A stretch of DNA of 64,000 bases from a bacterium (lineage in GTDB: Bacteria > Pseudomonadota > Gammaproteobacteria > GCA-002705445 > GCA-002716945): positions 55,034 through 119,033 of the forward strand of contig JAPOHH010000001.1 in assembly GCA_029979505.1 (NCBI GenBank), written 5' to 3'. The stretch's first letter is position 1. Every line of letters begins with the position of its first letter. The translations under genes and the position numbers were made by a program. The notes under the pieces were generated by a model. It searched no databases. It was not told the origin of the DNA and was given only the letters and a program-made list of their open reading frames with translations. Shown piece by piece: positions 45,486 to 64,000 of the stretch.

Positions 45486-46162
45486 AAGAATTTTTTTTTC
45501 AAAATTAAAATTAAAACATTCATAACTAATGCAATTAATATTAATGATATTCCTAAGCTTAGTGCTAAGGATAATTCACCCCTAGATGTTTCCAATACAA
45601 TACTTGTAGTCATAACTCTAGTAAGGTTATCAATATTTCCTCCTACAATAATTACTGCACCAACCTCAGATAATGCCCTACTTAGACCTGTAATAAATGC
45701 AATAACTACATCATATCTTGTCTCATATATAATTGTATTTCTCGTTTTATATTTAGTGGTATTTAATGATGATAATAACTCACTTAAATACATATACTTA
45801 TCTGTAAAACATTTAAGCAACAAAGACATAATAATTGGAGTGACAATGATAAATTGAGCTAATATCATAATCGCTGGAGAGTATAAAATATCCATAAATC
45901 CAAGAATTCCCGATGCAGAAAAAATAATATATAAAACTAGACCTACGACAACGGGAGGAAGGCTCATAAGTGAATTGATAATAATAGTTATCATTTCTTT
46001 ACCAATAAAGTTAGTCGTAGAAATATAACTAGCAATAATTATCGATAGTATTCCAGACAATAATGTCGCAAATATAGATACATATAGAGACAAAACAACT
46101 ATTTCAAGATAGCTTTGATTAAGCTCAAAAATATTTTTAAATGATTCGAGTAAAAGTTCCAC
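45482..46162 (-). CDS. ABC transporter permease (TupB-like, BPD_transp_1)
   Basis: Six-TM protein with EAA-like loop LSRALSEVGAVIIVGGN. Confidence 0.75.
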   Translation of the reverse strand: MELLLESFKNIFELNQSYLEIVVLSLYVSIFATLLSGILSIIIASYISTTNFIGKEMITIIINSLMSLPPVVVGLVLYIIFSASGILGFMDILYSPAIMILAQFIIVTPIIMSLLLKCFTDKYMYLSELLSSLNTTKYKTRNTIIYETRYDVVIAFITGLSRALSEVGAVIIVGGNIDNLTRVMTTSIVLETSRGELSLALSLGISLILIALVMNVLILILKKKFL

Positions 46163-46227
46163 AGAGAACTATATTACTACATTTATTTGACAGCTTATAG
46201 ATTGATAAAATAATATCAATTTGATTA

Positions 46228-51362: not shown

Positions 51363-52944
51363 TTTCTTGAATAAACTCTTTTTTATTTATTATGCCCTCG
51401 CATATTAAATCTAATCCATTATCATTTCCGGGTAATAATTCGCTAGTTTTAGTGACATTTAGACCAAACGGAGAAAAGTATTTCGAGTACTTAATTGATT
51501 TAAGTTTTATCATTCTTTGAAAGAAAATATAGTATGCAAATTTTTTTGCTTTAATAATTAAATCGTCACTCAATATTTTACTATATGGTAGCATATCTAG
51601 CTGTTTTTTATATTCATTAACCGAATCCACATCTATTGTAAATCCTTTATTACGCGCCCAAGATTCTCCTGCTACAATAACTGGTTTACCTGTACAGGAA
51701 ATTTCTATTGCCATTTTTGTACCATAAACAATACAACTATCACTTATTTCAACAAGATTATATGTTGAAATATTACTTGATGCTTGAACTATAAATATAT
51801 TCTTTGGAATCGTTTTATATTTTTTTATGATTTCTTCATATACACTTTGATTCGATGGGACGGTACCTAAAATCTCTCCGGGGTGTATCCTTATAACTAG
51901 TTGAGTCTTCTCATTTTTTTTAAAATAATCAATAGTATAAAAAAGCCAATCAAGCATCGATTTAAATATATGTCCTTTGAAATGCAGTTGAGCATCCCAC
52001 AAAACATTCGTAAGAAGTGTTACGATTGGTTTTTTTTGATCAATACCAAGAGAACTATACATATCTTTATTTAGGGATTTATTTTGAAAGGAAATCCAAT
52101 CATTTGTTCCTGTTTTTCTGCTATTTAGATAATTCATAAGCTTTATGTTCTTTTCTAAGCACCATTTCATTCGAGTCCAATTATTATCATCAGTAAGAAT
52201 TGTTCTGTGATATGTATCATTATGACTAAATAAAACAGTTCCTTTTCTATAAGATGGTCCCCAATTAATCACATGAATATTTTTCTTTCTACATACGTCT
52301 CCAATTATTCCTTGAGGAACATAAATTCCATGATGAAATACTACGCTTGTGAAATTGTATGTATTGGTTATATTATCAATAACTCTTTTTGTTAGTTCAG
52401 ATGCTTTCTTATATTTTTTTAATATTTGATTATGTATAGGGCCATTAAGTGTACCTCTTCCGAGATATCTCAGTGCACCAGCTCGTGCATGTTCATCAAT
52501 ACTGATATTTATTTCATGATTACTGTGATAATTATAATCACTATATTTTAAAACTTCTATACCAAGAGAATCATACATTTTTTTTGAATGATGGTATGAT
52601 GAACTACATATCGATTTGTTTCCTTCTAAAAGAAATCTTTTTTCATTTAACCAGTAAGATTCACATTCTTGACATGCATCAATAAGACCATCATTTAAAA
52701 GAATTTTTACTGATACACCTCTTAATGTTAATGCAATTGCTAATAAACTTTCAAAAGAGCTACATGGCCATAACCCACCGGTACTTGTTGCTATAAGAAT
52801 TTTTGATTCAGAAGAATTAACTACCCCCGCATCTTTGATAACTTTATCCCAATTAAATCTTGCAGATGTATAAGGCCTTATTTTTCTTAAAACAAATTCA
52901 TATAAAAAACTTTTTCTTATTTTTTTTGTTATTGAATTAGACAT
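51355..52944 (-). CDS. Putative polysaccharide biosynthesis transferase with R-x-HP motif (capsule KpsS/KpsC-like or TagF-like GT-B; family uncertain)
   Basis: VIRIHPGE followed by ...ISDSCIVYGTKMAIEISCTGKPVI, resembling the HP motif and C-terminal region of Capsule_synth/Glyphos_transf families (from memory). Confidence 0.35.
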   Translation of the reverse strand: MSNSITKKIRKSFLYEFVLRKIRPYTSARFNWDKVIKDAGVVNSSESKILIATSTGGLWPCSSFESLLAIALTLRGVSVKILLNDGLIDACQECESYWLNEKRFLLEGNKSICSSSYHHSKKMYDSLGIEVLKYSDYNYHSNHEINISIDEHARAGALRYLGRGTLNGPIHNQILKKYKKASELTKRVIDNITNTYNFTSVVFHHGIYVPQGIIGDVCRKKNIHVINWGPSYRKGTVLFSHNDTYHRTILTDDNNWTRMKWCLEKNIKLMNYLNSRKTGTNDWISFQNKSLNKDMYSSLGIDQKKPIVTLLTNVLWDAQLHFKGHIFKSMLDWLFYTIDYFKKNEKTQLVIRIHPGEILGTVPSNQSVYEEIIKKYKTIPKNIFIVQASSNISTYNLVEISDSCIVYGTKMAIEISCTGKPVIVAGESWARNKGFTIDVDSVNEYKKQLDMLPYSKILSDDLIIKAKKFAYYIFFQRMIKLKSIKYSKYFSPFGLNVTKTSELLPGNDNGLDLICEGIINKKEFIQENE

Positions 52945-52962: not shown

Positions 52963-54030
52963 TTATTTAAAAAGATAAGTATCAATTTGTTTATTACATA
53001 ATTCAGAAATATCAACTTTATCAATATAACCTTTATGCCAATTAACAATATTTTCAATAGTCTTTTTTAATTTCCATTTTGGATGCCACTGCAAATATTT
53101 TTTTGCTTTTTCATTATTTAACATCAACAATGATGCTTCGTGCGGATGCTTACCATCCTGATTACATATTTCAATTTCAGCCCCGTATGATTTAACTATC
53201 AAAGATGCCAACTCATATACAGAACAGTTATTCTCATCATCAGGACCAAAGTTCCACCCGCCTGAAAATTTTTTAGGATCTTTATATAACTTTTCTGCTA
53301 ATTTTAAGTATCCCGATAAAGGTTCTAGTACATGTTGCCAAGGTCTTGTTGAATTAGGATTTCTTATATCCAACGAATTATTTTTTTGACATGATTGTAA
53401 AATATCAGGTACTAGACGGTCATCAGACCAATCACCGCCACCTATTACATTACCTGCTCTAGCAGATGCAAGACCTACTTCATTGATACTATAATAAGAT
53501 TTCCAAAATGAATTTGTTATTAATTCAGAACAAGCTTTGCTGCAGCTATACGGGTCGTGTCCACCCATCCTGTCGTTTTCAGTATATGGAACATTAGTTT
53601 CATGATTTTCATAGCATTTATCAGATGTAATATTTATAAATGCTTTCAGTGATTTACACGACATAGATGTTTCTAGTAGATTAACTGTTCCCATGATATT
53701 AGTTGAATACGTGCTTACAGGATCTTGATATGATTTCCTGACAATTGCTTGTGCTGCCATATGAATAATGATTTCAGGCTTTGTATCGCTAATAAGATTC
53801 TTTACAGATTCATAGTTTGATAAATCACCAATATAGGAATTTATTTTTTTACCAATCAGGGATAGTTCATATAAATTAGGTTTTTTAATTGGATTCAAAG
53901 AAAATCCAGATACATTAGCTTCAAGTTTATTAAGAAGAATTGTTAACCATGAACCTTTAAATCCCGTATGACCAGTTATTAAAACATTTTTATTTTTCCA
54001 AAAGTCTTTATCTACTACCATACTTTCCAT
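52963..54030 (-). CDS. rfbG: CDP-glucose 4,6-dehydratase
   Basis: VLITGHTGFKGSWL Rossmann motif, YxxxK in DPYSCSKAC, and overall RfbG-like sequence. Confidence 0.85.
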   Translation of the reverse strand: MESMVVDKDFWKNKNVLITGHTGFKGSWLTILLNKLEANVSGFSLNPIKKPNLYELSLIGKKINSYIGDLSNYESVKNLISDTKPEIIIHMAAQAIVRKSYQDPVSTYSTNIMGTVNLLETSMSCKSLKAFINITSDKCYENHETNVPYTENDRMGGHDPYSCSKACSELITNSFWKSYYSINEVGLASARAGNVIGGGDWSDDRLVPDILQSCQKNNSLDIRNPNSTRPWQHVLEPLSGYLKLAEKLYKDPKKFSGGWNFGPDDENNCSVYELASLIVKSYGAEIEICNQDGKHPHEASLLMLNNEKAKKYLQWHPKWKLKKTIENIVNWHKGYIDKVDISELCNKQIDTYLFK

Positions 54031-54827
54031 TTAGCTTTTCTATTATCCCACATGTTGTCTAGTAAGTTTTTATCTCTTAGAGTGTCCATTGGCTGCCAAA
54101 AATCTTTATGTATATATGCGGATAATTGTCCTTCACTTGCAATTTTTTCTAATGGCTCCTTTTCCCAGATTATCTGATCACCGTCAATATAGTCTAGCAC
54201 TTTTGGTTTGAGAACAAAGAAACCGCCATTGATGTAACCATTATCAGAAACAGGTTTTTCAATAAACGATTCAACTTTATCGCTATCAATTTTTAAAGAT
54301 CCAAATCGTCCTGGTGGATTTACTGCGGTAACTGTTGCTAACCTATTTGACTTAGTATGAAAATCAATTAATTTTGAAATATCTACATTTGATAAACCGT
54401 CACCATATGTAAAGCAGAAGTCATCATCACCTATAAATTTTTTTACAGCTTTAAGCCGACCGCCAGTTAATGTAGATTCGCCTGTATCTACTAAAGTAAT
54501 TTTCCAAGGTTCACTCTTATGGGCATGTATATTATGACTGTTATTTTCTAAATCAATTGTTAAATCAGAGACATGAAGAAAATAATTAAAAAAATATTCC
54601 TTAATTTGATATCCCTTATATCCACAACAAATAATAAATTCATTGATTCCATAATGGGAATATATTTTCATGATATGCCACAGGATGGGTTTTCCTCCTA
54701 TTTCTATCATAGGTTTAGGCTTGAGATTACTCTCTTCAGAGATTCTAGTCCCTAGACCACCAGCTAAAATAACGCATTTTTTAACGTGATTTGACAAAAG
54801 AGTACCCCTCTTGATGTTGCTCTGCAT
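54015..54827 (-). CDS. rfbF: Glucose-1-phosphate cytidylyltransferase
   Basis: KCVILAGGLGTRISEE matches the RfbF N-terminus. The true start may be the TTG about 14 codons in (AAGAGGGG SD upstream) rather than the first ATG. Confidence 0.85.
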   Translation of the reverse strand: MQSNIKRGTLLSNHVKKCVILAGGLGTRISEESNLKPKPMIEIGGKPILWHIMKIYSHYGINEFIICCGYKGYQIKEYFFNYFLHVSDLTIDLENNSHNIHAHKSEPWKITLVDTGESTLTGGRLKAVKKFIGDDDFCFTYGDGLSNVDISKLIDFHTKSNRLATVTAVNPPGRFGSLKIDSDKVESFIEKPVSDNGYINGGFFVLKPKVLDYIDGDQIIWEKEPLEKIASEGQLSAYIHKDFWQPMDTLRDKNLLDNMWDNRKAKWKVW

Positions 54828-54897
54828 ATGCAGTTCATCACGATTATAGACTAAATTATCAGTAAATAGTACGGAAAATGACTGTGATTAAATATAA

Positions 54898-55905
54898 TTA
54901 GAAAATATAACCATTTTCATTATGAATTTTTTTTAAAAAATTGATTTGTTGATCTTCTATATTTGCATCCCTATGAATATTCTTAACAGTTCTCATATGT
55001 AAGGCAAAAGGCTTCTTATTATATAGAATTTCTTCTGGACGCATGTATTCATACTCTTTTGGATATATTTTTTTTATAAATGAGTATGTATTTTGATAAT
55101 TAATTCTTGGGATAACACCTAATATTTCTGGTAGCCAATTTCTTAATATTCTTGGAAATGTTTTTCTAACCTTACACAAATCATTATAATTAAATATATT
55201 CAATTGATTATTAAATAGAAAGACAGGGATATTATTACTCTTAGTATAATCTCTCAAATAGGATAAAGTATCCTTAGAAATATTTAATTTATAAATTGTA
55301 AACAATGGTACTAATAGAAGACTAGCTGGATATCTAAGAATAGTTTTTTGTAGATTAATAATGAGATATTTTAATTTCATTGCTAATTTACGTTTTTTTT
55401 CACTTACATTTAATTCAGGGGAAAATGATAGAAGGTCACGATTGATATTTGCAAAATTTATTGAAAAGAAATGGGGAGCAACAAAATCCTTCCATTTACT
55501 TGTTGAAGATAAATCCCATCGCATTCCTACTACTGGATAATTATTGTGAAGATTTAAAATAATATTTGAAAAATTCATATCAATAAATAAAAAATCAGGA
55601 TCTATAAATGTAACTACCTTGTTTTTATGATTAATTGAATCTAATCCAAAAAGTAAATTCGCAGAGTGATGATATGATCCCTCATCGTAGGGAGTAAAAA
55701 AAGAAGATATTCCTCTAATGAAAGTTATTTTTATATTATCTTGATTATTTATTAAGACTTTTGCATGTTCATATAATTCAGGATTAATTATTAAATTAAA
55801 TATAAGCTCATTATCAAATTTACAGTTAGCAAGAGAGCTAAGATGGAAATTAACTAAATTCAACTCAGATTTTTTATATATTGAAATAATAAAATTATGC
55901 TTCAT
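54898..55905 (-). CDS. Uncharacterised putative transferase, paralogue A (no recognisable family)
   Basis: Clear paralogue of 57099-58136: shared motifs SFFTPYDxGSYHH, IDPDFxFI, DFVAPHFFSI, FALHMRTVKN. Confidence 0.5.
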   Translation of the reverse strand: MKHNFIISIYKKSELNLVNFHLSSLANCKFDNELIFNLIINPELYEHAKVLINNQDNIKITFIRGISSFFTPYDEGSYHHSANLLFGLDSINHKNKVVTFIDPDFLFIDMNFSNIILNLHNNYPVVGMRWDLSSTSKWKDFVAPHFFSINFANINRDLLSFSPELNVSEKKRKLAMKLKYLIINLQKTILRYPASLLLVPLFTIYKLNISKDTLSYLRDYTKSNNIPVFLFNNQLNIFNYNDLCKVRKTFPRILRNWLPEILGVIPRINYQNTYSFIKKIYPKEYEYMRPEEILYNKKPFALHMRTVKNIHRDANIEDQQINFLKKIHNENGYIF

Positions 55906-57133
55906 TTAATGTCATCAATACTCTATCAGCTTGATCTTTCAATAAATTATTTATATAAGCAGGATCAAACCATATACGATTATTTATTTCATATTCTATT
56001 TGGTAAATATTAATATCTTTCTCACAATATACAATATAAGGATGAAGTGCGAGTGGAACTCTTAATGCAATCTCTGGTCTCATGATAACGTAACAACCTG
56101 CCATGATTGCTTCTAGAATTTTTGTTTTAAAACCCCAACCAGAACTATCTAGTACAAATAATGCTGTATATGAATGAAGTATAGATAATGGAGATTTAAG
56201 ATCACCTACATTCAGCATCCTTTCTTTACTTTTAAGGTGTTTAATATAAGGACCTGTATAAGATATTTTTATATCTTTAGGAAATTTATCAACAAACCCT
56301 GATAGATACATTATTTCTTGGTCAAGTCTTTCATTTTGAATATATGATGATCCATAAATAAGGTATTTTTGATTTGAACCATTATGCTCTCTTGGCTGAA
56401 TTTCTGACAGAAGCTCTTCAGTGATATAATATGGTACGTACTTAATTTTTCTCATTCGTACGTCATGAGAGCTAAAATGTAACTTATTCCAATAATTCAC
56501 AATATCATATTCACTTATTGAATGGATTTCATCAGCATATTTCAGTGCAATACAATCAGAAATATAGCATTTTAGACCAGTATAGTACTGCATCTTCCAT
56601 TCAAATCTATGAAAACCCTCTGCATTATGTGACCTGAAAATAATTTTTACATCCGGATAAGCTTTTTTTAGATACTTTATTGTTAATCCGTATGACCCTG
56701 GAACATCAAGGTATATCGTATGTATAGATAAATTATTCTCTTTTATTAATTTAAGAAATACAACTTTTAAAAGAGCTTTAAGTATTCGATCTCCTCGAAT
56801 TGTTTTAAGAGATATAAAAGATATATTATTTCTCTTAAAATAATCTACTCTAGTTTTTATGTCTTTTGAACTACCAAGATAGTTCAATGATGGTACAGAG
56901 GTATTTTCAGGGACAATATGTAAGATATATTTTTTTGAACTTCCATTGAATTTTTCCCAACACTTCTTTTTCTTATAAAACCACATGGCTTTGATAGAGG
57001 TAGGTAAAAAATATTTTAATCTAAATAGTATTGGATTATGACTTATACTTAAGAATTTATAAATTTCATATAATAGACGTCTAATTTTACCTACAATGCT
57101 AGAAATCATGTAATTCACCCTCAAAAATACCAT
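55895..57133 (-). CDS. GT-B fold glycosyltransferase (GT4-like C-terminal domain)
   Basis: C-terminal GWGFKTKILEAIMAGCYVI resembles the GT-B nucleotide-sugar binding E-x7-E region. Confidence 0.5.
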   Translation of the reverse strand: MVFLRVNYMISSIVGKIRRLLYEIYKFLSISHNPILFRLKYFLPTSIKAMWFYKKKKCWEKFNGSSKKYILHIVPENTSVPSLNYLGSSKDIKTRVDYFKRNNISFISLKTIRGDRILKALLKVVFLKLIKENNLSIHTIYLDVPGSYGLTIKYLKKAYPDVKIIFRSHNAEGFHRFEWKMQYYTGLKCYISDCIALKYADEIHSISEYDIVNYWNKLHFSSHDVRMRKIKYVPYYITEELLSEIQPREHNGSNQKYLIYGSSYIQNERLDQEIMYLSGFVDKFPKDIKISYTGPYIKHLKSKERMLNVGDLKSPLSILHSYTALFVLDSSGWGFKTKILEAIMAGCYVIMRPEIALRVPLALHPYIVYCEKDINIYQIEYEINNRIWFDPAYINNLLKDQADRVLMTLNEA

Positions 57134-58136
57134 TTAAAGAAAAATAGTTTTTTAAAAAATTTAATTGAATTTCTCCAGTACCATCTTTACCTATTATTTT
57201 ATAAAAATTTTTTACAGTTCTCATGTGTAAAGCAAATAGTTTATTATCATAACTGATTTCTTCAGGTCTCATTAGTTTGTATTCACCTGGATTTGTATGT
57301 TTAATAAACGAGTGTTCTCTTGATTTTGTTTCTTTTGGAATATATCCAATTAATTTTGGCAACCAAAATCTAGAATAAATTGGAAATGCCTCTTTCATCT
57401 TGTCTAAAGAATTCAAATCAAATTCATTTATATTATTTTTGAATAGAAATATTGGAATATTATTCTTCTTAATATAATTTCGCAATACTGAAAGTGTATC
57501 ATAAGAAGATTTGATTCTTAGCCATGCATAAATTGGTAGAATGAGTAAATTTGATATTTTTCTCAGTAAATAGTTCTGCTTAAATTGATTAATTATATGT
57601 TCTAGATATTCATATTTAATTCTTTTTTTATTTGTAATTTCTAATTGTGGATTAAATATAACCCCGTCTGGACTAAGTTTTCTAAAATCTATTGAAAAGA
57701 AATGTGGAGCAACGAAATCCTTATGCTTATTATAATTAATATGTCCCCATTCCATACCTACTATATTATATCCACTGTCATGGAGTTTAGAAATTATCTC
57801 AGAGAAGTTTGTGTTTATAAAAAAAAAGTCAGGATCTATATAAGTAACAATCTTATTTTTTACATTTGCCTGCAATGTTCCAATTCTAAGATTTGCTGCA
57901 TGGTGATATGATCCTACATCGTATGGAGTAAAAAATGACGCAACACCTTTAATAGTCTCAATATTATCAATTTGATTAAGTTCATTATAAGCAAAGTCAA
58001 ATATTTCAGGATTAGCAACAATAAAAAACTTTAATTTTTTTTTTGTTTCAATTAAATTTAAATAATTAACATGAAACCTTATCAAAGGTATTTCTGATTT
58101 TTTATAAGTTGAAATTATTATATAATGGTCGCTCAT
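57099..58136 (-). CDS. Uncharacterised putative transferase, paralogue B
   Basis: Same conserved blocks as 54898-55905. Confidence 0.5.
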   Translation of the reverse strand: MSDHYIIISTYKKSEIPLIRFHVNYLNLIETKKKLKFFIVANPEIFDFAYNELNQIDNIETIKGVASFFTPYDVGSYHHAANLRIGTLQANVKNKIVTYIDPDFFFINTNFSEIISKLHDSGYNIVGMEWGHINYNKHKDFVAPHFFSIDFRKLSPDGVIFNPQLEITNKKRIKYEYLEHIINQFKQNYLLRKISNLLILPIYAWLRIKSSYDTLSVLRNYIKKNNIPIFLFKNNINEFDLNSLDKMKEAFPIYSRFWLPKLIGYIPKETKSREHSFIKHTNPGEYKLMRPEEISYDNKLFALHMRTVKNFYKIIGKDGTGEIQLNFLKNYFSLNGIFEGELHDF

Positions 58137-58153
58137 GGTTATTGAAAACCATA

Positions 58154-59413
58154 CTACTGTATAACAATATTTGATTCAATTATTTCTGAAGGACGTCTAT
58201 TTTTTAAAAATATTGATGATCTGTCAACATCCTCCTTATTTGCCATAGAATTTAGCAAATCAATAAGGTTTTCAGGTTTTACAGGAGCTATAATGCTCTC
58301 GTCAATCATTTGCTTAAAATGAGGTGCATTTGATTGTGTTTGATCAATACTATTATCAATAATTGCTATAGATTTTACACCTAAAGCATAACTGTCAATC
58401 ATTGCTGATGTGTTTAGTCCAAAAACTAAGTAAGATTTCAAAATTATCTCTGACAAATAAAGCTCAGATTGCTCGCTATGTGTTAATCCAACATTATCAT
58501 TATCAAATATAATTGACTTTGGTAGTCGTTCTTTAGAAATTAATTTAGCTGGATGAGAACGCACAATTAAACTGTATTCAGATAATTTACTCTTCTTGAT
58601 TGTTTCATATAAAAATAAAATATTTTTATTTTCATTACTTTTAATATTAGCTGAGGAACCAATATAAAGAATTTGTTTATCTTTTTTTATATCAATATTA
58701 TGCGAAATCCATTTTTCAAAAAATAATGATCCAGATATTATAATCTTTTCATTATTAATATGATGAATCTTCTTACAATATTCTTGTTGAAGTTTATTCC
58801 AAACATATACATAGTCAATTTGATTTAAAACCAGAGATTTAGTTGTTAAATTATCCCAAGTGAGTATCGGGTAATGAACTTTTAATCCTAAACATTTTGC
58901 AGCTAAAATATATTCATTCTCATTAGAAAATCTAAGATTAGCAGCTGTTGATATCATACAGTCATAGTTCATTGTTTTAATTCTCTCTTTAATAGATTTA
59001 TCGACAGGCAGGAGAAGATATAAATTATAAAATAAGCTGAATAGTATTTTTGATTTTAAAATCCTCTCGAATGTCTTATATTTACACAGGTATCTAATTA
59101 TTTTAGGCTGGTACAATATCCATCTCGTAATATAGAATTTCGTCGTTTCCTTTCTTCTTAAATATGACATCAATGTGATAAATTCGAATAAATATTTTTT
59201 CATATTGAAAAACAATCCACTACCAGAAATCATGGAATCATATTTAATTCTAAGCCCTTTTAAAAGTTTATGTTTTTTTAATTCAGTTATGTTTTTGGAT
59301 GACCAGGTTTCATCTAGATAAAGCGTACAGTCATTATTTATCGAAAGTTTACTTATCAGTTTGTATACATATGGTACATGGTCATATGATCTGATTGTAA
59401 TAAGTATTTTCAT
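58154..59413 (-). CDS. Putative TagF/KpsS-like transferase with R-x-HP motif
   Basis: VRSHPAKL followed by ...SYLVFGLNTSAMIDSYALGVKSIAI, resembling the Glyphos_transf/Capsule_synth catalytic region (from memory). Confidence 0.35.
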   Translation of the reverse strand: MKILITIRSYDHVPYVYKLISKLSINNDCTLYLDETWSSKNITELKKHKLLKGLRIKYDSMISGSGLFFNMKKYLFEFITLMSYLRRKETTKFYITRWILYQPKIIRYLCKYKTFERILKSKILFSLFYNLYLLLPVDKSIKERIKTMNYDCMISTAANLRFSNENEYILAAKCLGLKVHYPILTWDNLTTKSLVLNQIDYVYVWNKLQQEYCKKIHHINNEKIIISGSLFFEKWISHNIDIKKDKQILYIGSSANIKSNENKNILFLYETIKKSKLSEYSLIVRSHPAKLISKERLPKSIIFDNDNVGLTHSEQSELYLSEIILKSYLVFGLNTSAMIDSYALGVKSIAIIDNSIDQTQSNAPHFKQMIDESIIAPVKPENLIDLLNSMANKEDVDRSSIFLKNRRPSEIIESNIVIQ

Positions 59414-59419
59414 TTAATA

Positions 59420-60562
59420 TTAAGATTCGGTTACGGTAACAGACGAACCTACAAAACCATCTGGAGGAACGCTACCAATACTTCTTTCATTCATACATGA
59501 TCGATCATTAGTCATTATCATAGGTACGGGTACCTTCCATACTTTTATATCATCAACAAATAATGTCAGAAACAAATAATAATTAATTTTTCTAAATTTT
59601 ATGTCATCAACATTGAATGAAAATGTTGTTGGTTTTGATAGTAAAAATTCATGATTATAAGAAAATAATCTAAAGTGACCAAGATTTTTTCGATCATGCG
59701 CTAGAGACCACCCAAGAGAACATTTTGTGTTTTTAAGTCCGTTGTTATCAATTAATATTGATAGGGATAAATTTGCATGTTCAATGTCAATGTCAGTAAA
59801 CGAATAAGAGATATCACTAATAGTAGGTGTAGCATTATTATCTCTAGCTGAATCATTATAAATAGGTGCATTAACTCTCTTTAAAAAAGGAATTATCGGC
59901 AGTGAGACCTCTTCATTATCTGGGTTAATGATAGATATAGTCTGAAAACCATATAGTTCATTGTTATGAACATTTTGATCAAGGTTTGATAATAATATAT
60001 ATTTATTATCCTTATTAAGCTTATCTAAATGTCTAGAATCAAAACCTGTTAGTATTATTGTTTTATTAGGTATACTTAAAGATAATATAAAAAATAATAA
60101 ATCACGATACAATTTCTTCTGATCAACATCTGCAGCTTTAGTACTGTAATCAAATTCTTTTTTTAATTTTTGTATATATTGTTCAACTTCATCAGGAATT
60201 TCATCAAAAATATCTTTCACTATGTAATCAAGCATGACATGTTCCCTATAAAGGGGTCTGAAAAATTTTGGCGCTTTAGCATGTATTGATATATATTCAA
60301 AATTTATATTTTTTTTATAATGCCCTGCTCTATCATGAATAGCATTGACAACTAAATCATAATATGACTTGTTTTTCATAACATATATTTTATTACTATC
60401 ACTTGGTAGGTTAATTTTGTAAGTTAAAAAGTCTTTATGGTAAATGTCTTTTGTAAATAAAGAATTAAAAAGTATATTTCTTCTTCTTTTGTGGATTTTG
60501 AGTTTTTTTGTTTCAAATAACTCTACTGACAATGTATCAGACGATTGAATCTTTATAGGCAT
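59420..60562 (-). CDS. Hypothetical protein (380 aa), no recognisable motifs
   Basis: Long ORF embedded in the polysaccharide operon with 26-nt overlap onto the upstream gene. No Walker motifs seen. Confidence 0.5.
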   Translation of the reverse strand: MPIKIQSSDTLSVELFETKKLKIHKRRRNILFNSLFTKDIYHKDFLTYKINLPSDSNKIYVMKNKSYYDLVVNAIHDRAGHYKKNINFEYISIHAKAPKFFRPLYREHVMLDYIVKDIFDEIPDEVEQYIQKLKKEFDYSTKAADVDQKKLYRDLLFFILSLSIPNKTIILTGFDSRHLDKLNKDNKYILLSNLDQNVHNNELYGFQTISIINPDNEEVSLPIIPFLKRVNAPIYNDSARDNNATPTISDISYSFTDIDIEHANLSLSILIDNNGLKNTKCSLGWSLAHDRKNLGHFRLFSYNHEFLLSKPTTFSFNVDDIKFRKINYYLFLTLFVDDIKVWKVPVPMIMTNDRSCMNERSIGSVPPDGFVGSSVTVTES

Positions 60563-61268
60563 ATTTAATTTCCTTATCTACTGATTTATAAAAGTATAAC
60601 GATAGAGCTATTAATATAATAGTGTGAATTTTAAGAATCATCAGCTTCTCAAGAAAAGCTATGTCATAAAAGAATATAATCTCTATAAAATTAAAGATAG
60701 AAAAAAAGGCAAAACTATCAGATATTAAAATATTTATTTTCAAGAAAAGCAAAAGTATTATTGGAACAAACTGAGGTGCATTTACAAAATCTATAGCATT
60801 TATAGACAATGTCCCTATCTTTACGAAAATTGGCATGGTAATTACATACAATAAAAGTGGATAAAATAAATGGTCTGTGTATGAAACATCTACAAATATA
60901 GAAAGAAGTACATATAGGATATTCAAAAAGAACAAACTTAGAATAAAATCACATAAATTATAAATTAGTGCGTCATTAATTGAAAATGATGTTAGTTTAA
61001 TATACCTTCGCATTCTACGAGCATTAGTTACAATATTAATTGTACAGTACCAATAAATAGTCCATCCAAATGTCATAGTTAGCAAAGTATTAATGTTCTC
61101 AATATCAGGAAATACACCTTGTATCATAAGAAAATATGACCCAAACATAAGGAGTGGCTTGAAAATATACCAAAACCATCCAGAAATTGTTAGGTCATTC
61201 CAATAAAATGTTTCAAGTTTATAAGCTATAAATCCTTTATTTGTCATTTTCGTGTAAATATTTTTCAA
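60537..61268 (-). CDS. Putative ABC-2 type (Wzm/KpsM-like) polysaccharide-export permease
   Basis: 243 aa, about 6 TM. N-terminal block LTISGWFWYIFKPLLMFGSYFLMIQGVF resembles the KpsM/TagG signature region. Confidence 0.4.
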   Translation of the reverse strand: MKNIYTKMTNKGFIAYKLETFYWNDLTISGWFWYIFKPLLMFGSYFLMIQGVFPDIENINTLLTMTFGWTIYWYCTINIVTNARRMRRYIKLTSFSINDALIYNLCDFILSLFFLNILYVLLSIFVDVSYTDHLFYPLLLYVITMPIFVKIGTLSINAIDFVNAPQFVPIILLLFLKINILISDSFAFFSIFNFIEIIFFYDIAFLEKLMILKIHTIILIALSLYFYKSVDKEIKYAYKDSIV

Positions 61269-63183
61269 TACAAAAAGTTAAATTAAAGCTGTCTAGATTT
61301 GCATGTTTTAAGACTAGTTCATTTTCTCCACATTTAGGGAAATCATCTAATCCAATAGCTTCAATTCTTGGGGCATTTGCTCCCCAATCAATAGATGTTA
61401 TCCGATCTCTTAATCCACCAATTAGATAATGATTTTCAAGGACAATAATAAATTTTATATTTTCAGTATAATTTTTTAACCATGGTCGTTTTACTTCATT
61501 TAACCATGGGAAATTTATAACTTTAATATTAATATGTCTTTCAGTTTTATACTTGATTGCTACAGAATGCGCAAGATTACATGCTATTGGGCCATATGCA
61601 ATTATTGCGATTTCTTCACCATCATCTATAACTAATCCTTTACCTGCATTCAGTCTAATATCTTTTGGATAGTCAAAGTTAATTTCTATTGGCAGAGAAC
61701 AAAGTCTAATATAAGTACTATATTCTGTTTCTGGACTGATTGCCCAATTTAAAACATTATTTAATTCTTCTTCACAACATGGTTCAACTATTCTGAGACC
61801 TGGGATTGCTGCAAGCGATGATATGTCTCGAACCGCTTGATGAGAGTGTCCTGGCCCTCCTGGTAAAACTCCAGCTAGAGAACCTACATAGATAATTTTT
61901 TTTCTTTCAGTTGCATTGTTATAAATTTGTTCGTTAGGTCTTGTAGATAAAAAGCAAGAAAAAGAATGTACAATAGGCAAATAACCACTTAAGGATAGTC
62001 CACCAGCTGTTGAGACCATATCTTGCTCTGCAATACCACACTCAATAAATCTTTCTGGAAATTTATTTTTAAATGGGATGAGACCCGTATCAAGAATTAA
62101 ATCTGCATCTAAAGCTACAATCTTATTATTTTTTTTTGCATGCTCAACTAATTGTTCACTGTATGCTGCAATTAAATTATCCGGTTTTTTTTGCGTAACA
62201 GTGTTCTTTTTTTTCTTTTCTGTTGAACTAATAGAGATTTTATCTAGATTGAATTGATCTTGATAGTGTTCTACTGTTTCTATAAGTTCATTAGCAGCAT
62301 TTAAATATTCTTCAGGTGTTGGTGCTCCGCTGTGATATTGATAATATTTATCATTAGGTTTTGCAGTGTGCTCCATGAATGAAACACCCTTGCCTTTAAT
62401 TGTATTCGCGAGTAAAAATTTTGGTCCTGACTTTTCTTTTAATCTATCTATAGCATTTTCTAGTGATTCTAAGTCATTCCCATCACATTGATCTACATTC
62501 CAACCAAAAGATTTTACTTTTGATAAAATATCACCAAGATCAGAAACTTCGCTAAGTAAAGTGTCAGATTGCAGTTTATTATGATCAACAATTACAAATA
62601 GTTCATCCATATTATAATTCACAGCTGAAACTAAGGATTCCCAAAATTGACCCTCTTGAAGCTCGCCATCGCCTGTAAGTACAAATACTCTGCCAGAGAT
62701 TTTAGATAGCCTTCTTGCAAAAATCATACCCTTAGCTTTAGATATACCCATTCCCAACGATCCAGTATTTGTTGCTATACAGGGTGTGTTGATGTCTGGA
62801 TGTCCAGGCAGACCATTAATTTTACGGAGTTTATCAATTAGATGGAAATCAAGATAACCATGAGCAATTAGCATTGAATAGAATCCAGGTGCATCATGTC
62901 CCTTAGAACTAAAGAATATATCTCCGTCGACTGTCGGGTTATTGTTATGGAAATTAAGCTCTTTTAGAAACAACCAAGAAAATATATCTAAACTACTAAA
63001 GCTACTACCTATATGGCCTGAGCCAGAATTTGAAATCATATACAATGTGTTGAGTCTACAAAGGTCAGCTATAATTTTTGCTTTTAATCTTAGGTCAATC
63101 TTTTGTGAGAGAATGTATTGAAATATATTTTCTCCAATAAAATATAATGTTCCGTCAATTGCTTTTCCTATTTTATCTCCCAT
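61237..63183 (-). CDS. Transketolase, fused N-terminal (ThDP-binding) and C-terminal (Pyr/TKC) halves
   Basis: N-terminal half has SKGHDAPGFY, GLPGHPD and GDGELQEGQFWE; C-terminal half has FIECGIAEQDMVSTAGGLS. Both halves lie in a single 648-aa ORF. Confidence 0.85.
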   Translation of the reverse strand: MGDKIGKAIDGTLYFIGENIFQYILSQKIDLRLKAKIIADLCRLNTLYMISNSGSGHIGSSFSSLDIFSWLFLKELNFHNNNPTVDGDIFFSSKGHDAPGFYSMLIAHGYLDFHLIDKLRKINGLPGHPDINTPCIATNTGSLGMGISKAKGMIFARRLSKISGRVFVLTGDGELQEGQFWESLVSAVNYNMDELFVIVDHNKLQSDTLLSEVSDLGDILSKVKSFGWNVDQCDGNDLESLENAIDRLKEKSGPKFLLANTIKGKGVSFMEHTAKPNDKYYQYHSGAPTPEEYLNAANELIETVEHYQDQFNLDKISISSTEKKKKNTVTQKKPDNLIAAYSEQLVEHAKKNNKIVALDADLILDTGLIPFKNKFPERFIECGIAEQDMVSTAGGLSLSGYLPIVHSFSCFLSTRPNEQIYNNATERKKIIYVGSLAGVLPGGPGHSHQAVRDISSLAAIPGLRIVEPCCEEELNNVLNWAISPETEYSTYIRLCSLPIEINFDYPKDIRLNAGKGLVIDDGEEIAIIAYGPIACNLAHSVAIKYKTERHINIKVINFPWLNEVKRPWLKNYTENIKFIIVLENHYLIGGLRDRITSIDWGANAPRIEAIGLDDFPKCGENELVLKHANLDSFNLTFCIEKYLHENDK

Positions 63184-63931
63184 TACAACTCCTATGTTTT
63201 TTAAATTTAGGCAAAATTACATGTTTTGTGCGAATATAATGTTCAGCTAATAACCAGTCTTCGTGAGTATTTATATCAAAACCTTCAAGAGCTTTTGTAA
63301 TAAATGGCAAAATTAATGATCCAGAAATACTTTTTTTAACAACAAGAGTTTTAAGCCATGCAATCTCAAGACTAGCATTTTGAACATAGATTTTTGGAAG
63401 TAGTGCATATTGATTGCTATGCCATGGTGTCCCATTAATAGTTTTATTTAAAATTGGAGTCATATACTTCTTACCAAGTGACCACATTTTTCCTGGATGT
63501 TGTCCACATAGTTCAACAGCCCTAAGAGAATCAAATTTTAAACTTTTATTAAATAATTTAAATGCTCTTTTAATAGTTTTTTCTGTTCTAAATGGACTGG
63601 TAGGTCTTAATATACTATACACATTAAAGTCATATCCTTCGTTTTGTAAAACATCTGTAGTAAATTTTACCCATTCATAATCAGGTGAAGTTGATGATGC
63701 TATTTTTTTTGGTCTAAAAATAACTTCAGCACCATATTGGCTGGCGATATCAGCATAATATTCGGAGTCAGTTGAACAGATAACACGATTAAAACATTTA
63801 CATTCTAATGCAGAGTAAATGGTATAGGCGAGCAATGGACGGTTCTTTAGTAATTTTATATTTTTATCAATAATTCTTTTTGATCCTGATCTTGCAGGAA
63901 TAAGTGCTATCGCTTTTATGTTTTTACTCAT
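63173..63931 (-). CDS. CMP-sugar (acylneuraminate/nonulosonate/Kdo-type) cytidylyltransferase, NeuA/KdsB superfamily
   Basis: AIALIPARSGSKRIIDKNIKLL...ILRPTSPFR is typical of NeuA/PseF-type cytidylyltransferases. Confidence 0.8.
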   Translation of the reverse strand: MSKNIKAIALIPARSGSKRIIDKNIKLLKNRPLLAYTIYSALECKCFNRVICSTDSEYYADIASQYGAEVIFRPKKIASSTSPDYEWVKFTTDVLQNEGYDFNVYSILRPTSPFRTEKTIKRAFKLFNKSLKFDSLRAVELCGQHPGKMWSLGKKYMTPILNKTINGTPWHSNQYALLPKIYVQNASLEIAWLKTLVVKKSISGSLILPFITKALEGFDINTHEDWLLAEHYIRTKHVILPKFKKHRSCNGR

Positions 63932-64000
63932 GTCTAATTGTTTTCATAAAAAAATGAAATATTTTTTATTTCTGTATATACATCTAGTGCTTCCAATCCA

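What the first reader, a model, noticed from the sequence alone, without database searches (positions are those of the whole stretch)
52963..63931. rfbF/rfbG without 3,6-dideoxy tailoring genes, combined with a fused transketolase and a CMP-sugar synthetase: candidate pathway to an unusual chain-extended or branched sugar
RfbF plus RfbG make CDP-4-keto-6-deoxy-D-glucose. The usual downstream genes (ddhC/ddhD/abe/prt/tyv-type 3-dehydrase, reductase, epimerase) are not in the window. Instead the locus encodes a single-polypeptide N+C-fused transketolase and a NeuA/KdsB-superfamily cytidylyltransferase. ThDP enzymes of the transketolase/E1 type are known to install two-carbon branches on nucleotide-4-keto-6-deoxyhexoses (yersiniose/aldgarose-type chemistry), or to build ketoses. 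The NeuA-like enzyme activates 2-ulosonic acids. Either enzyme acting within this glycan pathway would yield a non-standard sugar. This is a hypothesis from gene content, not from sequence-specific evidence.
Basis: inference. Interest (0 to 1): 0.55.

Follow-up and report, generated by a model that had tools for sequence, protein, structure and literature searches.

The report
Transketolase-containing CMP-ulosonic acid sugar cassette
The odd transketolase and the CMP-sugar synthetase do not work with rfbF/rfbG: they are the last two genes of a widespread six-gene cassette, apparently unstudied, that probably makes a new CMP-activated sialic-acid-like sugar, while rfbF/rfbG have their own dideoxy-sugar partner genes just beyond the window edge.

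Summary
All four named genes are real. RfbG and RfbF score above NCBIfam equivalog cut-offs. There is also a 648-aa transketolase-family protein and a CTP_transf_3 cytidylyltransferase.

1. The "missing" tailoring genes are a window-edge artefact. Contigs 99.9% identical to the window continue the operon. They encode an RfbH/DdhC-like 3-dehydrase (His replaces the PLP lysine), an RmlC-like epimerase and a reductase.

2. The transketolase belongs to another pathway. The next upstream genes are NeuB-like synthase, KdsC-like phosphatase, SDR and aldehyde dehydrogenase. This NeuB-HAD-SDR-ALDH-cytidylyltransferase-Tkt order recurs in genomes from many phyla. In 59 loci with enough flank, SDR occurs in 53, NeuB in 44, ALDH in 42 and RfbF/G in only 3.

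The Tkt keeps its thiamine-diphosphate and catalytic residues. All four sugar-phosphate-binding residues are replaced, invariantly, so it is not the pentose-phosphate enzyme.

A KpsC-like GT-B protein (51355-52944) often follows the cassette and is the likely transferase.

Proposed chemistry (inference, about 0.35): the SDR oxidises the penultimate carbon of the CMP-sugar, the Tkt removes the terminal two-carbon ketol, and the ALDH makes a dicarboxylic "ulosaric" acid.

I found no publication on this cassette.

The parts
63934..64000 (-). 3' end (last ~22 codons) of the aldehyde dehydrogenase gene of the cassette. The rest lies beyond the window (L002 7802-9250).
   Evidence: L002 is 99.9% identical to the window. 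The ALDH gene ends 2 nt before the cytidylyltransferase start. PF00171; best NCBIfam hit is alpha-ketoglutaric semialdehyde dehydrogenase at 423 bits, below its cut-off.
63173..63931 (-). CMP-ulosonic acid synthetase (CTP_transf_3, 252 aa). A second cytidylyltransferase besides the canonical KdsB at 1288-2007.
   Evidence: PF02348 87 bits. PseF 120 bits (cut-off 206) and KdsB models 25-41 bits. PDB hits NeuA 1EYR and 6IFD. Adjacent to the Tkt in 38-65 of the related loci. Overlaps the Tkt start by 11 nt.
61237..63183 (-). Non-canonical transketolase-family ThDP enzyme (648 aa). Proposed to cut (or, less likely, add) a two-carbon ketol on a dephosphorylated or CMP-linked ulosonic acid.
   Evidence: Pfam Tkt N/pyr/C domains. 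Below all tkt and dxs equivalog cut-offs. Best PDB hit is human TKT at 193 bits. Cofactor and catalytic residues are kept. The phosphate binders R318, S345, H416 and R474, and also D424, are replaced; D365, L436, P444 and S496 are invariant in the family. At least 535 related genomes.
60537..61268 (-). Hydrophobic 243-aa protein, no family hit. Possible membrane component of glycan export or assembly.
   Evidence: No Pfam or NCBIfam hit. Not conserved next to the cassette elsewhere.
59420..60562 (-). 380-aa protein of unknown function.
   Evidence: No Pfam or NCBIfam hit.
58154..59413 (-). 419-aa protein with a faint match to 'surface carbohydrate biosynthesis protein' TIGR04396.
   Evidence: 24.8 bits against a cut-off of 125. 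Homologues near the cassette in 8 of 80 loci.
57099..58136 (-). 345-aa protein, paralogue of 54898-55905. Candidate glycosyltransferase (faint GT2 hit).
   Evidence: 48% identity to 54898-55905. Glycos_transf_2 E = 0.05.
55895..57133 (-). 412-aa protein with a faint GT-B (Glyco_trans_1_4) hit.
   Evidence: E = 0.048.
54898..55905 (-). 335-aa protein, paralogue of 57099-58136. Candidate glycosyltransferase.
54015..54827 (-). RfbF, glucose-1-phosphate cytidylyltransferase. First step of a separate CDP-(di)deoxyhexose branch.
   Evidence: TIGR02623 448 bits, cut-off 300.
52963..54030 (-). RfbG, CDP-glucose 4,6-dehydratase. Second step of the CDP-sugar branch.
   Evidence: TIGR02622 479 bits, cut-off 278.
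51355..52944 (-). 529-aa KpsC/KpsS-like GT-B protein. Candidate transferase for the CMP-activated sugar. A 36%-identical paralogue (512 aa) lies beyond the window between manC and the methyltransferase.
   Evidence: Capsule_synth PF05159 at 18 bits, sub-threshold; many homologues carry PF05159. AF2 model pLDDT 89.5. GT-B fold with best target-normalised TM (~0.51) to KpsC beta-Kdo transferases. Invariant H354-P355. Homologue within 10 kb of the Tkt in 21 of 59 loci. Paralogy.
50292..51362 (-). GT4 glycosyltransferase of the same glycan cluster.
   Evidence: Glycos_transf_1 93 bits.
49169..50311 (+). GT4 glycosyltransferase (opposite strand).
   Evidence: Glycos_transf_1 114 bits.
47952..49133 (-). 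Wzy_C-domain O-antigen ligase or polymerase. Marks the downstream end of the glycan cluster, next to fhs at 46228-47901.
   Evidence: PF04932 73 bits.

Best explanation
The finding covers the middle of a surface-glycan (O-antigen or capsule-type) gene cluster of about 30 kb in an uncultured low-GC gammaproteobacterium. The cluster runs on the minus strand from a Bac_transf initiating transferase beyond the window end down to a Wzy_C protein at 47952-49133. It holds separate sugar-nucleotide modules.

(A) RfbF and RfbG make CDP-4-keto-6-deoxy-D-glucose. Three enzymes encoded at the far end of the same cluster most likely finish it into a CDP-3,6-dideoxy- or 6-deoxy-hexose: an RfbH-like PMP-type 3-dehydrase, an RmlC-like epimerase and an SDR reductase.

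(B) The transketolase-like enzyme and the cytidylyltransferase are the last two genes of a conserved cassette: NeuB-like synthase, KdsC-like phosphatase, SDR, aldehyde dehydrogenase, CMP-transferase, Tkt.

Proposed pathway for (B):
1. The NeuB-like enzyme condenses PEP with an aldose phosphate into a 3-deoxy-2-ulosonate phosphate.
2. The phosphatase frees the terminal CH2OH.
3. The cytidylyltransferase makes the CMP-sugar.
4. The ElaC/PtmA-type SDR oxidises the penultimate carbon (C8 of a nonulosonate) to a ketone. This creates a terminal HOCH2-CO-CHOH ketol.
5. The ThDP enzyme cleaves off that two-carbon unit, as transketolase does with its ketose donors.
6. The aldehyde dehydrogenase oxidises the exposed aldehyde to a carboxylate. 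The product would be a CMP-activated dicarboxylic 3-deoxy-ulosaric acid.
7. The KpsC-like GT-B proteins (51355-52944 and its paralogue) transfer it to the glycan.

Shown: gene identities, the cassette and its conservation, loss of the sugar-phosphate site in the Tkt, and the independence of the cassette from RfbF/G.
Inferred: the order of steps, the substrate and the product. I put module assignment at about 0.85 and the specific tail-trimming chemistry at about 0.35.
For: Locus extension:
- L001, L002 and L090 are 99.9% identical to the window.
- They show, in order: RfbH-like, RmlC-like, reductase, ManC/PMI, 512-aa GT, methyltransferase, NeuB, HAD, SDR, ALDH, CMPT, Tkt.

Conservation:
- The Tkt family is 47-57% identical across Proteobacteria, Chlorobi, Cyanobacteria, Chloroflexi, Myxococcota, Acidobacteria and CPR.
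- The same cassette occurs in Methylobacter and in another metagenomic contig.
- In 59 loci with at least 7 kb upstream: SDR 53, NeuB 44, ALDH 42, CMPT 38, HAD 25, KpsC-like GT 21, RfbF/G 3. No other gene family is comparably enriched.

Tkt active site, from the alignment to human TKT:
- H37, H77, H110, D155, N185, K244 and E366 are conserved, and Q428 becomes His.
- R318, S345, H416, R474 and D424 become gap, D, L, S and P. The four alignable replacements (D365, L436, S496, P444) are invariant in 27 family members.
- PMC8016368 lists these residues as lining the X5P-ThDP adduct.

SDR:
- Its only strong PDB match is 6UH2, at 143 bits against 84 for the next hit. Both share an unusually long Ser-to-Tyr loop.
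- 6UH2 was the molecular-replacement model for ElaC, the SDR that acts at C8 of CMP-8-keto-legionaminic acid. That paper proposes the long loop as the CMP site (PMC13656337).

Other cassette parts:
- HAD: just below the KdsC (YrbI) family cut-off (104.8 vs 106.95 bits), which implies a terminally phosphorylated ulosonate intermediate. One genome has a HAD-SDR fusion.
- ALDH: closest to alpha-ketoglutaric semialdehyde dehydrogenase, whose substrate is a 2-keto acid with a distal aldehyde.
- GT: Capsule_synth and KpsC-like fold.

CDP branch:
- RfbH-like, with His at the PLP-lysine position.
- RfbF/G co-occur with RmlC-like and reductase genes in L012, L015, L036 and L037.
Against: - No enzyme here has been assayed, so the substrate, step order and product are inferred from family resemblance.
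- SDR and ALDH similarities to KduD, gluconate-5-dehydrogenase and KGSADH are generic and below cut-offs.
- The link from the SDR to ElaC is indirect. It runs through 6UH2; ElaC itself was not compared.
- The acceptor of the C2 unit is unknown.
- About 30% of loci lack ALDH within 10 kb.
- Moorena and Geminicoccus show only CMPT plus Tkt nearby.
- A Streptomyces megaplasmid has only NeuB-SDR-Tkt, in what looks like a secondary-metabolite cluster. So the CMP-level order of steps cannot be universal.
- The position aligned with catalytic His258 is Asn. I assume the nearby invariant His284 in 'YxxHSGAP' is the true equivalent, but did not test this.
- The RfbH-like protein lacks the E1 Fe-S cysteines and no E3 gene was seen, so the CDP branch product is also uncertain.
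Confidence: 0.55

Rival explanations
1. Chain extension instead of trimming. The SDR oxidises the terminal CH2OH of the ulosonic acid to an aldehyde. The Tkt-like enzyme adds a two-carbon ketol to it, giving a 10- or 11-carbon ulosonic acid. ALDH serves a side reaction or an alternative product.
For: Transketolases normally transfer ketol units to aldehyde acceptors. The cassette association and the loss of the phosphate site fit a free or CMP-linked sugar acid as acceptor just as well. About 30% of loci lack ALDH.
Against: It leaves the ALDH, present in 42 of 59 loci, without a role. The nearest characterised relative of the SDR type acts on a secondary carbon (C8), not on a primary alcohol (PMC13656337). 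The usual ketol donors are phosphorylated, and the phosphate site is gone.
Confidence: 0.15
2. Tkt, SDR and ALDH act before or beside NeuB. They might build the unusual aldose that NeuB condenses with PEP, supply hydroxypyruvate as an irreversible C2 donor, or make a glycolyl/glyceryl substituent.
For: No dedicated aldose-supply gene (KpsF, ManC or GmhA type) is enriched near the cassette. The NeuB-SDR-Tkt trio can occur without the cytidylyltransferase. D-glyceraldehyde and lactaldehyde dehydrogenases are among the ALDH's better hits.
Against: Transketolase products are ketoses, which are not NeuB substrates, or common aldose phosphates that need no extra enzyme. The lost phosphate site argues against sugar-phosphate chemistry. 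No acyl or ether transferase is conserved in the cassette. The HAD-SDR fusion and the ElaC-type SDR point to action after dephosphorylation of the ulosonate.
Confidence: 0.15
3. The Tkt-like enzyme is a ThDP-dependent decarboxylase of the 2-keto acid made by NeuB. It would give a 2-deoxy-aldehyde that ALDH oxidises (or an aminotransferase aminates). The cytidylyltransferase would then activate something else.
For: Tkt and DXS relatives decarboxylate 2-keto acids such as hydroxypyruvate and pyruvate. In Streptomyces the trio lies next to a class-III aminotransferase and has no cytidylyltransferase.
Against: It destroys the 2-keto acid that CTP_transf_3 enzymes need, yet the cytidylyltransferase is translationally coupled to the Tkt here. 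It also lies within 10 kb of the Tkt in most related loci, typically immediately upstream. A KpsC-like CMP-sugar transferase follows the cassette.
Confidence: 0.08
4. One reading: the transketolase installs a two-carbon branch on, or otherwise extends, CDP-4-keto-6-deoxy-D-glucose made by RfbF/RfbG (yersiniose/aldgarose-like).
For: The genes share one cluster in this window. RfbF/RfbG also flank the Tkt in a few other genomes: L012, L015, L036, L037.
Against: RfbF/G are present in only 3 of 59 well-covered loci, whereas the NeuB cassette is the norm. Where RfbF/G occur they bring their own RmlC-like and reductase genes. Here an RfbH-like 3-dehydrase, an epimerase and a reductase account for the CDP-4-keto sugar. 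From my own knowledge, the known branching ThDP enzymes are of the acetolactate-synthase type (YerE) or the split E1 alpha/beta type, not transketolases.
Confidence: 0.03
5. The gene is simply the organism's housekeeping pentose-phosphate transketolase, and happens to sit in a glycan cluster.
For: It has all three transketolase domains and intact cofactor-binding motifs. No other tkt lies in the 64-kb window, though that is only a small part of the genome.
Against: It scores 147 bits against the TIGR00232 cut-off of 682, and 344 against 488 for the best short-Tkt model. All four sugar-phosphate-binding residues and the substrate-contacting Asp424 are replaced; the four alignable replacements are invariant in the family. 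The start codon overlaps the cytidylyltransferase gene. The cassette context is conserved in many phyla.
Confidence: 0.02

Closest known systems
CMP-Kdn pathway (Kdn-9-phosphate synthase of the NeuB family, KdsC-family Kdn-9-P phosphatase, CMP-Kdn synthetase), as in Bacteroides thetaiotaomicron (from my own knowledge)
   Same: NeuB-family synthase, KdsC-type HAD phosphatase and CTP_transf_3 cytidylyltransferase side by side. No aminotransferase or NDP-sugar hydrolase, which suggests a non-amino ulosonic acid built from an aldose phosphate.
   Different: Three extra conserved enzymes: SDR, ALDH and a transketolase-like ThDP enzyme. The NeuB, HAD and cytidylyltransferase all score below the equivalog cut-offs of the characterised enzymes.
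ElaABC module for CMP-8-epi-legionaminic acid in Acinetobacter baumannii KL49 and Vibrio vulnificus (PMC13656337)
   Same: A cytidylyltransferase plus an SDR with an elongated substrate loop that does redox chemistry at C8 of the CMP-activated nonulosonate. Our SDR's best PDB match (6UH2) and the second-best match of our cytidylyltransferase (6IFD) were the search models used for ElaC and ElaB.
   Different: ElaABC only epimerises C8: a Gfo/Idh/MocA oxidase followed by an SDR reductase. Here there is no ElaA-type oxidase. Instead a ThDP enzyme and an ALDH are present, which suggests C-C cleavage and oxidation rather than re-reduction. Direct similarity to ElaC was not measured.
Housekeeping transketolase (EC 2.2.1.1; human TKT and split-chain bacterial Tkt are the closest solved structures)
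   Same: Three-domain fold, GDG...N ThDP/metal motif, cofactor-activating Glu, and the His residues that hold the donor's C1-OH and C2 carbonyl.
   Different: The phosphate-binding Arg/Ser/His/Arg set and Asp424 are replaced (the Arg318 position falls in an alignment gap; the other four replacements are invariant). Bit scores are far below the equivalog cut-offs. The gene sits in a glycan operon.
CDP-3,6-dideoxyhexose pathways (ddhABCD/asc: RfbF, RfbG, E1/RfbH, E3, then epimerase or reductase)
   Same: RfbF and RfbG are equivalog-level. An RfbH-like protein has His in place of the PLP lysine. RmlC-like and SDR reductase genes are present.
   Different: The RfbH-like protein is shorter (397 aa) and lacks the E1 Fe-S cysteine motif. 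No E3/ddhD gene was seen, so it may work like ColD. The genes are split between the two ends of the cluster.
KpsC/KpsS beta-Kdo transferases (Capsule_synth PF05159; GT107/GT99)
   Same: GT-B fold with the best structural agreement to KpsC. Weak PF05159 signal in this protein and clear hits in homologues. Invariant His-Pro pair. Encoded next to a CMP-ulosonic acid pathway.
   Different: Sub-threshold sequence match and TM only about 0.5. Extra N-terminal Cys-rich region. Donor and acceptor unknown.

Membership tests
Housekeeping transketolase (EC 2.2.1.1) | ThDP/metal-binding GDG...N motif, cofactor-activating Glu and catalytic His residues | tested here: met
   H57, H96, H128, D172, N202, K263, E386 and H448 align with human H37, H77, H110, D155, N185, K244, E366 and Q428.
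Housekeeping transketolase (EC 2.2.1.1) | Sugar-phosphate binding residues (human R318, S345, H416, R474) and D424 | tested here: not met
   Replaced by gap/N, D365, L436, S496 and P444. D365, L436, S496 and P444 are invariant in 27 family members. Residue roles come from PMC8016368 and my own knowledge.
Housekeeping transketolase (EC 2.2.1.1) | Score above the NCBIfam equivalog cut-off | tested here: not met
   Best is NF004559 at 343.5 bits (cut-off 488). TIGR00232 gives 146.6 (cut-off 682). dxs TIGR00204 gives 150.9 (cut-off 466).
NeuB-type CMP-ulosonic acid pathway | NeuB-family PEP-condensing synthase in the same operon | tested here: met
   PF03102 at 217 bits, with a SAF domain, at L002 5458-6480, 2.8 kb beyond the window end. 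Below the NeuB (248 vs 400) and PseI (205 vs 340) equivalog cut-offs.
NeuB-type CMP-ulosonic acid pathway | CTP_transf_3 cytidylyltransferase | tested here: met
   PF02348 at 87 bits. PseF 120 bits (cut-off 206), so not an equivalog of any named synthetase.
NeuB-type CMP-ulosonic acid pathway | Actual formation of a CMP-linked 3-deoxy-2-ulosonic acid | not testable with these tools
   Needs enzymology or glycan analysis.
CDP-3,6-dideoxyhexose (ddh/asc) pathway | Glucose-1-P cytidylyltransferase and CDP-glucose 4,6-dehydratase | tested here: met
   TIGR02623 448 bits and TIGR02622 479 bits, both above cut-off.
CDP-3,6-dideoxyhexose (ddh/asc) pathway | E1-type PMP-dependent 3-dehydrase with His replacing the PLP lysine | tested here: met
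   Outside the window (L090 1-1093). RfbH model 294 bits over 363 aa; best PDB hit 3BCX; 'SFYGSH' aligns with E1 'SFYPAH'.
CDP-3,6-dideoxyhexose (ddh/asc) pathway | E1 [2Fe-2S] cysteine motif and a partner E3 (ddhD) reductase | tested here: not met
   The E1 'DCYCAPGCDNTC' segment aligns with 'SSSIFGEDSESI'. No reductase gene lies in the 3 kb upstream in the related contigs L092 and L093. E3 could be elsewhere in the genome.
Yersiniose/aldgarose-type ThDP branching on NDP-4-keto sugars | ThDP enzyme consistently encoded with the NDP-4-keto-6-deoxyhexose genes it acts on | tested here: not met
   RfbF/G are within 10 kb of the Tkt in 3 of 59 loci.
KpsC/KpsS (Capsule_synth) CMP-Kdo transferases | PF05159 match above the gathering score | tested here: inconclusive
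   18.2 bits against a cut-off of 20 for the window protein. Many 40-45% identical homologues carry PF05159.
KpsC/KpsS (Capsule_synth) CMP-Kdo transferases | GT-B fold resembling KpsC, with a His-Pro motif | tested here: met
   AF2 pLDDT 89.5. Foldseek hits to KpsC 8FUW and 6MGC: E about 1e-7, target-normalised TM 0.51-0.52, against about 0.3 for other GT-B hits. H354-P355 invariant. The significance of the motif is from my own knowledge.

The most novel reading that the evidence does not exclude
The cassette encodes a previously undescribed route in which a transketolase-family enzyme edits the carbon chain of a CMP-activated (or free) sialic-acid-like sugar. It would cut the terminal two-carbon ketol exposed by a C8 oxidoreductase. 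An aldehyde dehydrogenase would then produce a CMP-3-deoxy-ulosaric (dicarboxylic) acid. That would be a new bacterial surface sugar class present in hundreds of species. It would also be the first defined pathway to a Dha-like sugar, whose biosynthesis and activated form are still listed as unknown in plants (PMC3355719, PMC12168206).
Probability: 0.3. Interest if true: 0.8.

Novelty: new variant of a known kind. Interest (0 to 1): 0.6.

Why it matters
Sialic-acid-like sugars shape how bacterial surfaces are recognised by phages, grazers and immune systems. The pathways described so far use synthase, phosphatase or hydrolase, cytidylyltransferase and redox or amino-tailoring enzymes.

A conserved cassette that adds a thiamine-dependent C-C bond enzyme would extend this in three ways:
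- It would add a new kind of tailoring step (carbon-chain editing) to nonulosonic/ulosonic acid biosynthesis.
- It would give transketolase-family enzymes a new role outside central metabolism, with a recognisable sequence signature: loss of the phosphate-binding residues (replacements D365, L436 and S496), plus P444 in place of Asp424.
- It would predict an unknown acidic sugar on the surface of many environmental bacteria, including abundant marine lineages.

It also corrects annotation. These genes are currently labelled simply 'transketolase'.

Tried and rejected
Literature. Seven combined transketolase with NeuB, sialic acid synthase, nonulosonic/ulosonic acid, cytidylyltransferase or aldehyde dehydrogenase, and none found a paper on this cassette. 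This library lacks most subscription journals, so absence is not proof.

Aldose supply. I looked for dedicated supply genes next to the cassette: KpsF-type arabinose-5-P isomerase, ManC/PMI and GmhA-like SIS. They occur in 1, 2 and 0 of 80 loci. The ManC/PMI and SIS genes of this cluster therefore cannot be used to infer the NeuB substrate.

Dha. [quoted passage not shown] A paper exercise on stereochemistry, starting from Man-6-P or Glc-6-P, did not give the D-lyxo configuration. I do not claim Dha, only a Dha-like class.

Gene fusions. I searched for fusions linking Tkt to partners. Only one HAD-SDR fusion was found, and no Tkt fusion.

All-against-all clustering. Clustering the ORFs of 80 loci found no further conserved cassette member.

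Plasmid search. It gave one relevant hit (Streptomyces), unannotated.

Second tkt. I could not test whether the source genome has another tkt.

Full report
**1. What is in the window**

From 63931 down to 50292 every ORF is on the minus strand, with overlaps or gaps of a few bases. HMM searches give these identities:
- 52963-54030 is CDP-glucose 4,6-dehydratase (TIGR02622, 479 bits against a cut-off of 278).
- 54015-54827 is glucose-1-phosphate cytidylyltransferase (TIGR02623, 448 against 300).
- 61237-63183 is a 648-aa protein with the three transketolase domains.
- 63173-63931 is a CTP_transf_3 cytidylyltransferase. It is nearest to PseF and NeuA but below all equivalog cut-offs.
- The six ORFs between 54898 and 61268 have no significant family match. 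Two of them are 48% identical paralogues with a faint GT2 signal.

Downstream lie a 529-aa protein, two GT4 glycosyltransferases and a Wzy_C protein.

**2. The window edge hides half of the story**

The exact transketolase and cytidylyltransferase proteins occur on several metagenomic contigs. L001, L002 and L090 differ from the window at only 10-11 positions over 10.8-12.8 kb, so they are valid extensions. In transcription order they show:
- RfbH-like DegT-family protein (397 aa)
- RmlC-like protein (182 aa)
- SDR epimerase/reductase (277 aa)
- ManC/PMI (468 aa)
- a 512-aa paralogue of the 529-aa protein (36% identity)
- a methyltransferase
- NeuB-family synthase (340 aa)
- KdsC-like HAD phosphatase (162 aa)
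- SDR (270 aa)
- aldehyde dehydrogenase (482 aa)
- then the cytidylyltransferase and the transketolase.

Relatives that are 93% identical (L092, L093) show the cluster starting after pgsA. The first genes there are a Bac_transf initiating transferase, a 256-aa protein and a GmhA-like SIS protein.

The window also carries LpxK and a bona fide KdsB at 341-2007. The organism therefore makes LPS, and the 63173-63931 enzyme is an additional cytidylyltransferase. The homoserine O-acetyltransferase (MetX) encoded in the window has close relatives named only 'Gammaproteobacteria bacterium'. The window comes from a 230.6-kb NCBI contig.

**3. RfbF/RfbG have their own partners**

The DegT-family protein scores 294 bits on the RfbH model over 363 residues. 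Its best solved relative is the E1 3-dehydrase of Yersinia, 3BCX, at 222 bits. Homologues are named CDP-6-deoxy-D-xylo-4-hexulose-3-dehydrase by JGI. It has His where aminotransferases have the PLP lysine: 'SFYGSH' against E1 'SFYPAH'.

It lacks the cysteine-rich E1 segment, and no E3 gene is nearby, so it may work like ColD. In L012, L015, L036 and L037, RfbF/RfbG again travel with RmlC-like and reductase genes.

The CDP-4-keto-6-deoxyglucose made here is thus accounted for by a deoxygenation, epimerisation and reduction branch.

**4. The transketolase belongs to a conserved NeuB cassette**

Its family is large and tightly conserved. Identity is 47-57% across Proteobacteria, Chlorobi, Cyanobacteria, Chloroflexi, Myxococcota, Acidobacteria, Gemmatimonadota and CPR. 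At least 535 species genomes were hit.

I searched 80 genome loci with the proteins of this locus. Restricting to the 59 loci with at least 7 kb upstream gave:

| Partner within 10 kb | Loci (of 59) |
|---|---|
| SDR | 53 |
| NeuB | 44 |
| ALDH | 42 |
| Cytidylyltransferase | 38 |
| HAD phosphatase | 25 |
| 529-aa protein | 21 |
| RfbF/RfbG | 3 |

The usual order is NeuB-HAD-SDR-ALDH-CMPT-Tkt, often followed by the 529-aa protein. The same order was seen independently in a Methylobacter MAG and in another metagenomic contig. All-against-all clustering found no further conserved member.

Variants exist:
- CMPT and Tkt alone in Moorena and Geminicoccus.
- A NeuB-SDR-Tkt trio on a Streptomyces megaplasmid. 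It sits beside HmaS/Hmo-like, AMP-binding, P450 and class-III aminotransferase genes.

**5. It is not a pentose-phosphate transketolase**

All tkt and dxs equivalog models score far below cut-off. The best solved relative is human TKT, at 193 bits.

In the alignment to human TKT the cofactor and catalytic residues are kept: H37, H77, H110, D155, N185, K244 and E366, with Q428 becoming His. By contrast R318, S345, H416, R474 and D424 become gap, D365, L436, S496 and P444. The four alignable replacements are invariant in a 27-member family alignment.

PMC8016368 lists these human residues as lining the xylulose-5-phosphate-ThDP adduct. That four of them bind the phosphate is from my own knowledge of transketolase structures.

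The enzyme therefore most likely still does ketol chemistry, but on a substrate without the usual terminal phosphate.

**6. Clues to the chemistry**

- The HAD falls just below the cut-off of the KdsC (YrbI) family model (104.8 against 106.95 bits). This points to a terminally phosphorylated ulosonate intermediate and hence a free terminal CH2OH after hydrolysis. One genome fuses HAD and SDR.
- The SDR has one outstanding PDB match, 6UH2, at 143 bits against 84 for the next hit. They share a Ser-to-Tyr loop about twice the usual length.
- 6UH2 was the search model used to solve ElaC, the SDR that reduces CMP-8-keto-legionaminic acid at C8. That paper proposes the long loop as the CMP-binding site (PMC13656337).
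- The search model for ElaB, 6IFD, is the second-best PDB hit of our cytidylyltransferase.
- The ALDH is nearest to alpha-ketoglutaric semialdehyde dehydrogenase, which oxidises a distal aldehyde on a 2-keto acid.
- The 529-aa protein gives a confident GT-B model (pLDDT 89.5). Its best agreement is with the KpsC beta-Kdo transferases. It has a sub-threshold Capsule_synth hit that is clear in homologues, and an invariant His-Pro pair.

**7. Proposed mechanism (inference)**

1. The NeuB-like enzyme condenses PEP with an aldose phosphate.
2. The phosphatase frees the terminal hydroxyl.
3. The cytidylyltransferase activates the acid.
4. The SDR oxidises the penultimate carbon, creating a terminal HOCH2-CO-CHOH unit. 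This is formally a transketolase donor.
5. The ThDP enzyme removes the two-carbon unit.
6. The ALDH converts the new aldehyde into a carboxylate, giving a CMP-activated dicarboxylic 3-deoxy-ulosaric acid.
7. The KpsC-like enzymes transfer it.

This is the only scheme I found that uses every conserved enzyme and explains the lost phosphate site. I rate it at about 0.35. The alternatives are chain extension, action before NeuB, and decarboxylation of the 2-keto acid; they are listed with their weaknesses under the rival explanations. The identity of the aldose, the fate of the C2 unit and the order of CMP activation relative to tailoring are all open.

**8. Comparison with known systems and novelty**

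The backbone (NeuB-type synthase, KdsC-type phosphatase, CMP-synthetase) matches the CMP-Kdn logic. The SDR-on-CMP-sugar element matches ElaABC. The conserved addition of a transketolase-family enzyme and an ALDH matches nothing I could find.

Seven of the ten literature searches targeted the cassette and returned nothing on it. The library's coverage is limited, so this is not proof of novelty.

I therefore class it as a new variant of a known kind of pathway. Plant reviews still list the pathway and activated form of the ulosaric acid Dha as unknown. That makes a bacterial ulosaric-acid route, if confirmed, of wider interest. I do not claim the product is Dha.

**9. Verdict**

- What is really there is a widespread, apparently uncharacterised cassette centred on a non-canonical transketolase.

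Noticed in passing
L090 1-1093 (about 8.9-10 kb beyond window position 64000, same strand as the finding): The RfbH/DdhC-like 3-dehydrase has the His-for-Lys signature but lacks the E1 [2Fe-2S] cysteine motif. No ddhD/E3 gene is nearby. It may be a cluster-less, ColD-like CDP-sugar 3-dehydratase.
   Followed up: partly
window 341-2007 (+): LpxK and a canonical KdsB (213 bits, cut-off 193). The organism makes ordinary Kdo-containing LPS, and the cytidylyltransferase at 63173-63931 is an extra one.
   Followed up: yes
window 54898-55905 and 57099-58136 (-): Paralogue pair (48% identity) with no Pfam family, only a faint GT2 hit. A 412-aa ORF with a faint GT-B hit lies between them. Possibly an undescribed glycosyltransferase family.
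   Followed up: partly
L033 6647-8053: A single ORF in a Verrucomicrobiae MAG matches both the KdsC-like HAD (123 bits) and the cassette SDR (290 bits). This apparent gene fusion links dephosphorylation and oxidation.
   Followed up: no
L094 9517-13968 (Streptomyces sp. NBC_01237 megaplasmid NZ_CP108509.1): A NeuB-SDR-Tkt trio (Tkt 45% identical), without cytidylyltransferase or ALDH. It sits among HmaS/Hmo-like, AMP-binding, P450, class-III aminotransferase and SARP/LuxR genes. The core trio may also serve secondary metabolism.
   Followed up: partly
L025 3725-7898 and L028 8742-13102 (Moorena): Only the cytidylyltransferase, the Tkt and a HAD_2-type hydrolase are clustered. No NeuB, SDR or ALDH lies within 10 kb.
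   Followed up: partly
window 42156-43980 (-): A 492-aa protein that reads like a photolyase/cryptochrome-related protein has no NCBIfam hit at E <= 1e-10. A small Cys-containing 117-aa ORF overlaps its start.
   Followed up: no
window 44072-47901 (-): A TupA-like tungstate ABC transporter (binding protein, ATPase, permease) lies directly beside formate-tetrahydrofolate ligase.
   Followed up: no
L092 16306-20329 and L093 5500-8444: In the 93%-identical relatives, NeuB, ALDH, ManC, the cytidylyltransferase and the 512-aa GT are split into fragments. These are most likely long-read assembly frameshifts rather than pseudogenes.
   Followed up: no
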